Source of the DNA: an uncultured Deinococcales bacterium
GTDB taxonomy: Bacteria > Deinococcota > Deinococci > Deinococcales > JAAFIG01
Length of the DNA stretch: 15,628 nt
Direction: 5' to 3'
NCBI GenBank assembly: GCA_964247135.1
Contig: CAXTTL010000110.1
Location: 1-15,628 of the forward strand
Shown here: positions 3,001 through 3,834 of the stretch, piece after piece
Position numbering within the stretch: the stretch's first letter is position 1
How the letters are laid out: every line of letters begins with the position of its first letter
Position numbers and translations under genes: made by a program
Notes under the pieces: generated by a model
What the model was told of the DNA's origin: nothing
The model's database searches: none
Seen by the model: the letters and a program-made list of their open reading frames with translations, nothing else

Positions 3001-3620
3001 AACAACTCGAGTTGTTGCACTTTGGGAATAATCTTTTTGCGCCCACGGGTTTTCTTGGGTGCTTCAGTCACTTCTGGCGTTGAAGCTTCGCCAACCTTGG
3101 GCTTTACAGGTTCAAGGGTTTCAGGCTCGAACAGCACAGCTTCTGGATCGAGTAACACTTCGGGTCTGGCGCGTCTGGTTTTTGGTTTGAGCGCTGGTGA
3201 CGTGGTGACCTCTACAGGCGCAACGAGAACGGGCGCAGCAAGCAGCGCCCCTACGGTTTTTTGCTTGCTTTGAACTTTGGGTTTGCTTTCAATTTCGATC
3301 ACAGGTTTTGATTCGGTGGTTGCTTCCTCAAGAACTTTTTTGCTGCGTCCTCGGGTTTTAGGCGCGGTTTCGAGTAAGACAGATTCTGGAGGCTCGGGTA
3401 CAACTGGGTTGCTCACCTCGAGCGTGACGGAGTCCTGCACCTCGAGCACCGGCACAACAAATTCAACGGGAGCGGACTTCTTCGCACCTCGAGGGACAGA
3501 TTTCTTCGCTTTGCCGTTCAAAGCGTCCTGGATTTGGGTTGGTTGAGTTTCCTCAACGGCTTTTTTCCTCGGTTTTTTCGAGGCGGGCGCTTTCGCACCT
3601 TTTACAACAGACTGGCTAAT
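1..3620 (-). CDS. rnr: Ribonuclease R (RNB family) with long disordered N- and C-terminal extensions; 3' end lies outside the window
   Basis: Manual translation of the minus frame (codons start at positions = 2 mod 3) showed no stop in the segments I read (3620-2500, the motif regions, 720-1). Catalytic motif [15 protein letters not shown] at about 2024-1980, then [51 protein letters not shown] (about 1139-1092) and an S1-like region ending ..REIDLALP (about 690). Start set at ATT 3620 because SD AAGGAG lies 5 nt upstream and an in-frame TGA lies 11 codons upstream. Confidence 0.95.
   Translation of the reverse strand, partial: [1206 protein letters not shown]
327..398 (-). repeat. Three imperfect 24-nt tandem units encoding NPNQHPRP / NPNQHPRQ / NPNQTPRP in the RNase R tail
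   Basis: Read directly from the translation of the rnr frame. Confidence 0.8.
666..680 (-). promoter_or_regulatory. Candidate internal in-frame translation initiation site in rnr (AAGGAG-6 nt-ATG)
   Basis: Minus strand reads gtcAAGGAGaacaccATGggaaaa. The ATG at 668 is in the rnr frame immediately after the S1 domain. Confidence 0.55.
3231..3254 (-). repeat. GTAG-type REP-like palindrome embedded in frame in rnr (encodes VGALLAAP)
   Basis: Minus strand GTAG-GGGCGCTGC-TT-GCTGCGCCC: a GTAG tag followed by a GC-rich palindrome with one mismatch, the layout of RAYT-associated REPs. Confidence 0.6.
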
Positions 3621-3834
3621 ACAAACTCCTTCACCCTGAAAAACTTGTTTTCAGGAAACCCGAGTGCATAATCCGTGACCTCGAGCAAGATCATGTTGCG
3701 CTCATCACGGCTGATGCCGAATGACTCCCACTGTTGGGTAGCGCTTGTTGAGATGGCGTTGTTCTTCACGCAGAACTTAATTCCTTCGGGGGGCTGAAAA
3801 ACGCAGGTACGTTTAAAGTCCTCATCCGAGACCT
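3621..3834 (-). promoter_or_regulatory. Putative ~214-nt structured 5' leader of rnr
   Basis: Lies between the extended -10 (3849-3841) and the ATT start. Contains hairpins at 3761-3776, 3727-3738, 3703-3716, 3676-3693 and 3635-3655. Confidence 0.45.

What the first reader, a model, noticed from the sequence alone, without database searches (positions are those of the whole stretch)
3618..3655. RNase R apparently initiates at a non-canonical AUU codon
Seen: the minus strand reads gtgAAGGAGtttgtATTagccag. An in-frame TGA at 3653-3651 closes the frame 11 codons upstream, with no ATG, GTG or TTG in between. The first in-frame ATG is 370 codons downstream (2510), inside the folded cold-shock region. 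The K/P-rich coding character begins right after ATT ([20 protein letters not shown]). An 8-bp hairpin (3635-3655) sits just upstream of the SD. Established: AUU starts are used by infC and pcnB in E. coli and are discriminated against by IF3. Inference: RNase R level is tied to initiation fidelity, which is notable given the neighbouring 30S maturation factor rbfA.
Basis: partly seen in the sequence, partly recalled or inferred. Interest (0 to 1): 0.7.

Follow-up and report, generated by a model that had tools for sequence, protein, structure and literature searches.

The report
RNase R gene starting at AUU
In an uncultured family of Deinococcus relatives, the gene for the RNA-degrading enzyme RNase R has no normal start codon and almost certainly begins at the weak codon ATT behind a strong ribosome-binding site, a rare design best known from the genes infC and pcnB.

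Summary
On the minus strand, AAGGAG (3631-3626), a 5-nt spacer and ATT (3620-3618) open the RNase R frame. An in-frame TGA lies 11 codons upstream, with no ATG, GTG or TTG between.

It is not an assembly error. All 18 genomes with the gene, of 19 in this uncultured Deinococcales family (5 genera), carry GGAG + 5 nt + ATT (17) or ATC (1) at the homologous spot. So does one further metagenome contig.

The first canonical codon downstream drifts between codon 7 and 107 and has no conserved SD. Downstream indels are all multiples of three; leader indels are not.

Outgroup families and E. coli have canonical codons at or near the conserved N-terminus.

An SD-led AUU start is therefore well supported (about 0.85), though only by comparison; there are no RNA or protein data.

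rbfA is adjacent only within this genus, and IF3 sensitivity is untested.

It is a new member of a known kind. This scan has noted conserved ATT starts on other DNA (RNase E, HARP and phage genes), but not on RNase R.

In passing: infC in this order sits on ATA or ATT, and on an invariant GTA in this family.

The parts
3618..3620 (-). ATT (AUU), proposed initiation codon of RNase R
   Evidence: The homologous codon is ATT in 17 of 18 family genomes and ATC in 1. It is the invariant column I1 of alignment A1.
3626..3631 (-). Shine-Dalgarno sequence AAGGAG, 5-nt spacer (TTTGT) to ATT
   Evidence: GGAG sits exactly 5 nt upstream in 18 of 18 family genomes. A 5-nt spacer is the modal GGAG-to-start spacing in this genome. 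The 16S rRNA of family genome G011 ends GGATCACCTCCTTTCT.
3651..3653 (-). In-frame TGA closing the frame upstream of ATT
   Evidence: In genus g5 the in-frame stop is a TAA only 3 codons before ATT and overlaps the SD (gTAAGGAG).
3..3620 (-). RNase R coding region, 1206 codons visible; the 3' end runs off the window and contig
   Evidence: Pfam: RNB 5e-108, CSD2 2e-12, S1 2e-6, OB_RNB weak. The frame is open from ATT.
2772..3617 (-). About 280-codon K/P/E-rich N-terminal extension with repeated K-T-R-G-R-K-K-like motifs, ahead of the conserved HTH-like block ([21 protein letters not shown])
   Evidence: An extension is also present in the long-form outgroup family, which starts MPKK at ATG.
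3519..3521 (-). TTG, first canonical in-frame codon (rival start; what a standard ORF finder picks)
   Evidence: The upstream 16 nt hold no GGAG. The AGGA seen in the window is absent from the other 5 genus members.
3635..3655 (-). 8-bp hairpin ending 3 nt before the SD
   Evidence: -7.1 kcal/mol. Kept in 5 of 5 genus members but with 0 compensatory pairs. Not seen in the other genera.
3621..3840 (-). Conserved untranslated leader (inferred 5' UTR)
   Evidence: Highly conserved within the genus but with indels of 1, 1, 34, 1, 3, 3, 1 and 1 nt. No Rfam match above chance. Folding z-score -0.29.
3841..3849 (-). TGCTATACT, extended -10-like motif (possible rnr promoter; inference only)
   Evidence: Single match in the window. 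Conserved in 5 of 5 genus leaders and in 2 g5 leaders. The consensus promoter scan found no -35/-10 pair, and the motif is not enriched genome-wide.
3602..3895 (-). 97-codon ORF overlapping the leader and the ATT; judged non-coding
   Evidence: No Pfam family. The frame is broken by 1-nt and 34-nt indels among genus members, and its length varies from 10 to 97 codons.

Best explanation
The RNase R gene (rnr) of this uncultured Deinococcales family is translated from an AUU codon. A strong Shine-Dalgarno sequence, (A/U)AGGAG, pairs with the CCUCCU tail of 16S rRNA. This places AUU, 5 nt downstream, in the P site, where initiator tRNA reads it with a third-position mismatch. The product would be fMet-Ser-Gln-Ser-Val-Val-Lys..., probably SQSVVK... 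after Met removal, followed by a K/P/E-rich extension of about 280 residues and the RNase R core.

Shown: the sequence architecture, its conservation across 5 genera, and the frame-preserving evolution downstream of ATT.

Inferred from E. coli infC and pcnB (established knowledge): AUU gives low translation that IF3 discriminates against. The most likely function is therefore to hold RNase R synthesis low and make it respond to IF3 activity relative to 30S subunits. The throttle part is more likely than a dedicated sensor.
For: (1) There is no alternative at the 5' end. An in-frame stop lies upstream with no ATG, GTG or TTG before ATT in 15 of 18 family genomes. G010 and G009 do have upstream in-frame canonical codons, and G002 is at a contig edge.
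(2) GGAG + 5 nt + ATT occurs in 17 of 18 genomes and + ATC in 1, while flanking leader sequence differs between genera. A further metagenome contig, L058, has AGGAGccaccATT, and its first GTG comes 55 codons later.
(3) The first downstream canonical codon sits at codon 7 (G008), 22, 30, 33, 34, 41, 43, 47, 48, 55 or 107 depending on the genome. None has GGAG in the 16 nt upstream.
(4) Indels after ATT are 3, 3, 3, 9 and 6 nt in g5, and none occur in 99 nt in g1. Leader indels are 15, 11, 4, 7, 7, 21, 6, 3 and 2 nt in g5, and 1, 1, 34, 1, 3, 3, 1 and 1 nt in g1.
(5) The peptide right after ATT is conserved (IS[TQ]S.., ITTER), with synonymous third-position variation at codons 3-5: ACC/ACG/ACT and TCA/TCC in g5, CGT/CGC in g3.
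(6) The genome uses SD sequences with a modal 5-nt spacer; 368 of 2213 long ORFs have GGAG in -20..-1.
(7) Outgroup families have canonical codons. The first canonical codon is ATG in 13 and GTG in 2 of 16 loci, and 1 runs to the locus edge. E. coli K-12 rnr is annotated at ATG after GGAGG. ATT is therefore a derived, retained state of this family.
Against: There is no direct evidence of translation. No RNA run was available, and there are no proteomic data.
pN/pS of the ATT-to-TTG segment is about 0.5, but one wrong-frame control gives 0.51, so that test does not discriminate.
G008 has ATC plus an ATG 7 codons downstream that gives MPKK, like the ATG-started outgroup.
G010 and G009 have in-frame canonical codons upstream of ATT.
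The 18 genomes are kin and fall in only 5 genera.
Against the regulatory layer: rbfA adjacency is genus-specific. infC of this family carries no AUU. A strict scan for GGAG-N5-ATT starts found no other credible gene in this genome. In E. coli extracts AUU mRNA was less, not more, active at low temperature (PMC5499595, abstract).
Confidence: 0.85

Rival explanations
1. Translation starts only at the first canonical codon downstream (TTG 3521 in this genus). The ATT-to-TTG stretch would then be untranslated leader, and its conservation would be RNA-level.
For: TTG at codon 33 is present in all 6 genus members. Standard ORF finding picks it. The window has AGGA 4 nt upstream of it. The pN/pS test does not discriminate frames.
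Against: The AGGA is absent from the other 5 genus members. The canonical codon's position is not conserved between genera: codon 7 in G008, 22 to 107 in the rest. Indels in the stretch are all multiples of 3. The peptide IS[TQ]S/ITTER directly after ATT is conserved with synonymous changes. The perfect SD would be left with no start codon to serve.
Confidence: 0.06
2. Dual initiation: a minor long isoform from AUU and a shorter isoform from a downstream canonical codon (or from the ATG 7 codons downstream in G008).
For: Weak AUU starts allow leaky passage. G008 has both ATC with an SD and a nearby ATG giving MPKK. Canonical in-frame codons exist downstream in every genome.
Against: Bacterial ribosomes do not scan. 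The downstream codons lack an SD and are not positionally conserved.
Confidence: 0.07
3. Termination-reinitiation: ribosomes translating a leader uORF stop at the TAG that overlaps the start (AT-TAG-C) and restart at AUU. This mode is less dependent on codon identity.
For: ATTAGC is kept in 15 of 18 genomes, although Ser has six codons. An ORF in frame +2 that ends at this TAG is open for 13-50 codons in 8 genomes: G010 and 7 of g5.
Against: No such uORF exists in g1 (frame +2 is closed at -13), in g3 (ATTACC, no TAG) or in G009. The uORF peptide changes frame between close relatives G012 and G017, so it is not a conserved coding unit.
Confidence: 0.04
4. Artefact: an assembly or sequencing error turned ATG into ATT, or the gene is a pseudogene that has lost its start.
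For: The genome is a fragmented MAG: 386 contigs, 84% complete.
Against: The 23-nt block ggtgaaggagtttgtATTAGCCAG is identical in five other same-genus assemblies. The sixth same-genus record is cut at a contig edge but shows the same letters. The same architecture occurs in 12 genomes of four other genera. Contigs of two further runs cover 3608-3629 with no listed difference between 3589 and 3712, although 34 differences were not shown. The 1200-codon frame is intact with strong RNB, CSD2 and S1 matches.
Confidence: 0.01

Closest known systems
E. coli infC (IF3), AUU start codon with IF3 autoregulation
   Same: A non-canonical AUU (AUC in some species) is placed behind an SD and is phylogenetically conserved at the start of one specific gene. 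[quoted passage not shown]
   Different: The product here is an exoribonuclease, not the factor that discriminates the codon. Any IF3 dependence would therefore be cross-regulation, not autoregulation, and it is untested. The conservation shown here spans one family, not most bacteria.
E. coli pcnB (poly(A) polymerase I), AUU start that limits expression
   Same: An RNA-metabolism enzyme whose excess is presumed harmful is made from AUU, apparently to keep its level low.
   Different: A different enzyme and lineage. Here the SD is a perfect AAGGAG at the modal spacing. No expression data exist.
E. coli K-12 rnr (RNase R, b4179)
   Same: Same enzyme family (RNB, CSD, S1). The SD GGAGG precedes the start.
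   Different: E. coli uses ATG. It lacks the K/P/E-rich N-terminal extension of about 280 residues. Its level is known to be controlled by stress-dependent protein stability; this is recalled, and the 2025 review PMC12320835 cites cold-shock and stress induction.
Lineage-specific conserved ATT starts noted earlier by this scan (RNase E of a planctomycete, HARP RNase P, phage nucleases and a sigma factor)
   Same: The same architecture of SD + ATT at the 5' end of a conserved gene, kept across relatives and missed by gene callers (AI notes, not checked here).
   Different: Other genes and other lineages. None concerns RNase R or Deinococcales.

Membership tests
RNase R / RNB-family 3'-5' exoribonuclease | RNB catalytic domain flanked by cold-shock/OB domains and a C-terminal S1 domain | tested here: met
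   Pfam RNB 5.1e-108 (residues 524-849), CSD2 2.2e-12, S1 1.6e-6; OB_RNB is weak, at 19.5 bits below its cut-off of 24.
SD-led AUU-initiated bacterial genes (infC/pcnB kind) | No canonical start codon between the upstream in-frame stop and the conserved N-terminus | tested here: met
   Met in the window and in 15 of 18 family genomes. G010 and G009 have upstream in-frame canonical codons, and G002 is at a contig edge.
SD-led AUU-initiated bacterial genes (infC/pcnB kind) | ATT/ATC/ATA at functional spacing behind a Shine-Dalgarno sequence | tested here: met
   AAGGAG + 5 nt + ATT. A 5-nt spacer is the modal spacing in this genome. The anti-SD CCTCC is present in the 16S rRNA of family genome G011. 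The window's own genome has no 16S assembled.
SD-led AUU-initiated bacterial genes (infC/pcnB kind) | The non-canonical codon is conserved at the homologous position in orthologues | tested here: met
   17 of 18 have ATT and 1 of 18 has ATC, across 5 genera, plus one metagenome contig.
SD-led AUU-initiated bacterial genes (infC/pcnB kind) | The sequence downstream of the codon evolves as coding sequence in that frame | tested here: inconclusive
   Indels are all multiples of 3 and there is synonymous variation at codons 3-5. However, pN/pS of 0.5 is matched by a wrong-frame control at 0.51.
SD-led AUU-initiated bacterial genes (infC/pcnB kind) | Experimentally mapped N-terminus or initiating ribosome at the AUU | not testable with these tools
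   Uncultured organisms; no RNA holder was listed and only contigs could be laid.
IF3-regulated genes (infC-type translational control) | Expression from the non-canonical codon falls when IF3 rises and rises when IF3 falls | not testable with these tools
infC of this family carries no AUU; the codon homologous to the outgroups' ATA/ATT is GTA.

The most novel reading that the evidence does not exclude
The AUU start makes RNase R synthesis a read-out of IF3 activity per free or immature 30S subunit. When idle or immature 30S subunits outnumber IF3, AUU initiation rises and more RNase R is made. RNase R is the enzyme that degrades free and pre-30S subunits from the anti-SD end of 16S rRNA (review PMC12320835, passages). 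E. coli rbfA and ksgA null strains misinitiate at non-canonical codons, and raised IF3 levels counter this (PMC6868393, passages). Together this would form a homeostatic loop for small-subunit quality control. It would arise in a family whose infC has itself changed the order's ancestral AUA/AUU start to GUA, which would point to a lineage-wide re-tuning of start-codon discrimination.
Probability: 0.12. Interest if true: 0.8.

Novelty: new member of a known kind. Interest (0 to 1): 0.5.

Why it matters
Few bacterial genes are accepted as AUU-initiated, and each has taught something about IF3-dependent control.

Here a central RNA-quality-control enzyme has kept AUU behind a perfect SD across a whole bacterial family, while its outgroups have canonical codons. 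This gives a clean natural contrast for asking what a weak start codon buys.

In practice, standard ORF finding cuts at least 33 codons off this protein here and up to 107 in relatives, or misplaces the start.

If the IF3/30S coupling were real, it would link ribosome surveillance to start-codon fidelity.

Tried and rejected
One search failed on a mistyped reference format; it was corrected.

Rfam scan of 3400-4000: only a chance snoRNA match, E = 0.76.

Whole-leader fold: z = -0.29, no more structured than shuffles.

Consensus promoter scan: 0 sites on either strand. TGCTATACT is not enriched genome-wide: 12 copies, similar to its variants.

Hairpin covariation: 0 compensatory pairs in 5 sequences.

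pN/pS test: not discriminating.

Genome-wide strict scan for GGAG-N5-ATT/ATC starts: 2 ATT and 1 ATC candidates. The two that are not rnr translate to sequences that look non-coding.

Sequencing runs: no RNA holder was listed. The two best DNA holders laid 0 contigs. Only contigs of relatives (X3, X7) were laid, so there is no read-level count at ATT.

Protein database search with residues 1-110 among proteins of 663-2111 aa: no hit at E <= 0.001. I could not see how public gene calls start, nor find an ATG-bearing relative. Shorter proteins were not searched.

Metagenome scan: only 1 extra locus.

16S 3' end in the window's own genome: not assembled.

The 97-codon ORF at 3602-3895 as a real gene or frameshift partner: rejected, because its frame is not conserved.

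Literature: three searches found no paper on an AUU or ATT start of RNase R. Subscription-only papers and supplements were not searchable.

Full report
**What is there**

On the minus strand the window reads ...TGA AAA CAA GTT TTT CAG GGT GAA GGA GTT TGT ATT AGC CAG TCT GTT GTA AAA GGT.... TGA is at 3653-3651 and ATT at 3620-3618.

The frame opened by ATT runs for 1206 codons to the window's edge. It carries RNB (5e-108), CSD2 and S1 domains and a weak OB_RNB match, so it is RNase R.

No ATG, GTG or TTG lies between TGA and ATT. The first canonical in-frame codon is TTG at 3521 (codon 33), and the first ATG is at 2510 (codon 370).

AAGGAG (3631-3626) precedes ATT by 5 nt. The 8-bp hairpin at 3655-3635 is real, at -7.1 kcal/mol.

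The bare pattern GGAG-N5-ATT is expected 1.43 times per shuffled window. The case rests on position and conservation, not on the motif alone.

**Lineage**

The window is contig C110 of a 5.09-Mb, 386-contig, 84%-complete genome. Close relatives found in the GTDB genome collection are titled as uncultured Deinococcales MAGs. The family holds 19 species genomes in 5 genera, and 18 of them have an rnr match. G006, at 74% completeness, has none.

**Not an assembly error**

The six same-genus genomes all read gtgaaggagtttgtATTAGCCAGTCTGTTGTAAAAGG. One of them is cut by a contig edge 14 nt upstream of ATT.

Contigs from two further public runs cover the site with no listed difference between 3589 and 3712. 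However, 34 differences were not shown, and the two best holders laid nothing, so this adds little.

**Conservation across the family**

In all 18 genomes a GGAG lies exactly 5 nt upstream of the homologous codon. That codon is ATT in 17 and ATC in 1 (G008). Examples:
- AGGAGagatcATTAGC (G010)
- AGGAGccaccATTACC (G011)
- AGGAGtcgccATTACC (G007)
- AAGGAGttaccATTAGC and close variants (eight g5 genomes)
- AAGGAGtttttATCGTT (G008)

The leader sequence further upstream is unrelated between genera.

In seven of the eight g5 genomes the in-frame stop is a TAA only three codons upstream, overlapping the SD. This leaves no room for another start.

An additional metagenome contig, L058, has AGGAGccaccATTACC, and its first GTG comes 55 codons later.

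Exceptions, stated fully:
- G010 has an ATG directly after the upstream stop.
- G009 has TTG, TTG and ATG upstream in frame.
- G008 has an ATG 7 codons downstream of its ATC.
- G002 is at a contig edge.

**Is the stretch after ATT translated?**

- The first canonical codon after ATT lies at codon 7 (G008), 22, 30, 33, 34, 41, 43, 47, 48, 55 or 107 depending on the genome. None has GGAG in the 16 nt before it.
- In genus g5 the internal alignment gaps downstream of ATT are 3, 3, 3, 9 and 6 nt, against 15, 11, 4, 7, 7, 21, 6, 3 and 2 nt in the leader.
- In the window's genus there are no gaps in the 99 nt downstream, against 1, 1, 34, 1, 3, 3, 1 and 1 nt upstream.
- The peptide right after ATT is conserved: ISQS in g1, ISTS in g5, ISTT in g2, ITTER in g3. 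Codons 3-5 show synonymous variation: ACC/ACG/ACT, TCA/TCC, CGT/CGC.
- A pN/pS calculation gave about 0.5. One wrong-frame control gave the same, so I count that test as inconclusive.

**Does the genome use SD sequences?**

Of 2213 long ORFs, 368 have GGAG within 20 nt of the first canonical start. The spacer peaks at 5-8 nt, with a mode of 5.

The 16S rRNA of family genome G011 ends GGATCACCTCCTTTCT. The window's own genome has no 16S assembled.

**Polarity**

In 16 outgroup loci of the same order, the first canonical codon after the in-frame stop is ATG in 13 and GTG in 2, at or just before the conserved N-terminus. One locus runs to its edge.

The long-form outgroup family starts MPKK/MPKT at ATG behind AGGAA- or AGGTG-like sequences. 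E. coli K-12 rnr is annotated at ATG after GGAGG.

ATT is therefore a derived state fixed at or near the base of this family and kept since.

**Mechanism**

I commit to SD-led initiation at AUU, with confidence about 0.85. By analogy with infC and pcnB (established knowledge), AUU should give low output that IF3 represses. PMC5499595, section 23, restates that infC's AUU/AUC is the target of IF3 autoregulation.

The simplest function is a throttle on an enzyme that can destroy free 30S subunits. The 2025 review PMC12320835 describes RNase R degrading free and pre-30S subunits from the 16S 3' end; I read passages of it. The term 'start codon' occurs 0 times in that review.

- rbfA lies upstream of rnr only in the window's genus (5 of 5 with flank). 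It is absent from the upstream flank in 0 of 8 g5 genomes, which keep only the thioesterase, and in 0 of 4 genomes of the other genera within shorter flanks. The neighbourhood argument therefore fails.
- E. coli rbfA and ksgA null strains misinitiate at non-canonical codons, and raised IF3 levels counter this (PMC6868393, passages). A 30S-maturity link thus remains conceivable, but it is untested.
- In E. coli extracts AUU mRNA was less active at low temperature and under ppGpp (PMC5499595, abstract). This argues against a simple cold-induction role.

**Rivals**

- A start only at TTG 3521. This is disfavoured by the unconserved position, the missing SD and the in-frame indels.
- Dual initiation. 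This is possible, especially in G008.
- Reinitiation after a uORF ending at the TAG inside ATTAGC. Such a uORF is present in 8 genomes, absent in g1, g3 and G009, and its frame is not conserved.
- Artefact. This is excluded by the independent assemblies.

**Novelty**

Three literature searches found nothing on an AUU or ATT start of RNase R. Subscription-only papers and supplements were not searchable.

This scan has earlier noted conserved ATT starts in other genes and lineages: RNase E, HARP and phage genes (unchecked notes). The finding is a new member of a known kind, not a new kind.

**Side observations**

infC: in five outgroup genomes the codon 6 nt after AGGTG is ATA (4) or ATT (1). 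This is the expected non-canonical infC start.

In 17 of 17 readable family genomes the homologous codon is GTA. It is invariant, although the next Ala codon uses all four synonyms, and an in-frame GTG sits inside the SD three codons upstream. Either infC moved to GTG or it uses GUA; I did not resolve this.

CTCGAG occurs 95 times in the window against 3.5 expected.

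Noticed in passing
G000:C33 about 9793-9830 (-) (L066); family loci L061-L077; outgroup loci L080-L084: The start region of infC (IF3) is unusual across the order. Outgroups have GGAGGTG + 6 nt + ATA (4 of 5) or ATT (1 of 5) at the N-terminus. In 17 of 17 readable genomes of this family the homologous codon is an invariant GTA, while the following Ala codon uses GCC, GCT, GCA and GCG. An in-frame GTG is embedded in the SD three codons upstream. Either the start shifted to GTG or infC here uses GUA. 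This bears on whether IF3 autoregulation survives in the family.
   Followed up: partly
window 3621-3849 (-): The rnr leader of about 230 nt is more conserved within the genus than the N-terminal coding extension, for example an invariant block GCCCCCCGAAGGAAT.AAGTTCTGCGTGAAGAACAACGCCATCTCAAC. It tolerates 1-nt and 34-nt indels. It has no Rfam match and no excess folding energy. Its function is unknown.
   Followed up: partly
window 3841-3849 (-): TGCTATACT, an extended -10-like motif, is conserved in 5 of 5 genus leaders and recurs upstream of rnr in two g5 genomes. GCTATACT also recurs upstream of infC in g5 genomes. It is not enriched genome-wide.
   Followed up: partly
whole window: The palindrome CTCGAG occurs 95 times in 15.6 kb against 3.5 expected from shuffles, including inside the rnr leader and the N-terminal coding region.
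   Followed up: partly
window 2772-3617 (-) and alignment A1: The N-terminal extension of RNase R, about 280 residues, carries repeated K-T-R-G-R-K-K-like basic motifs separated by P/E/V-rich spacers. The R-G-R core (R192, G193, R194) is invariant or nearly so across the family. The Deinococcus-type outgroup has similar long extensions. Its function is untested; it may bind nucleic acid or the ribosome.
   Followed up: no
window 3615-3620 (-) and family loci: The second codon is AGC in 15 of 18 genomes although Ser has six codons. This creates a TAG that overlaps the ATT (AT-TAG-C) and terminates leader ORFs in 8 genomes. It could reflect start-context selection or stop-start coupling.
   Followed up: partly
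window 3936-4379 (-): A 4HBT-type thioesterase gene lies directly upstream of rnr in this genus and in all 8 g5 genomes, at 66-78% identity.
   Followed up: no
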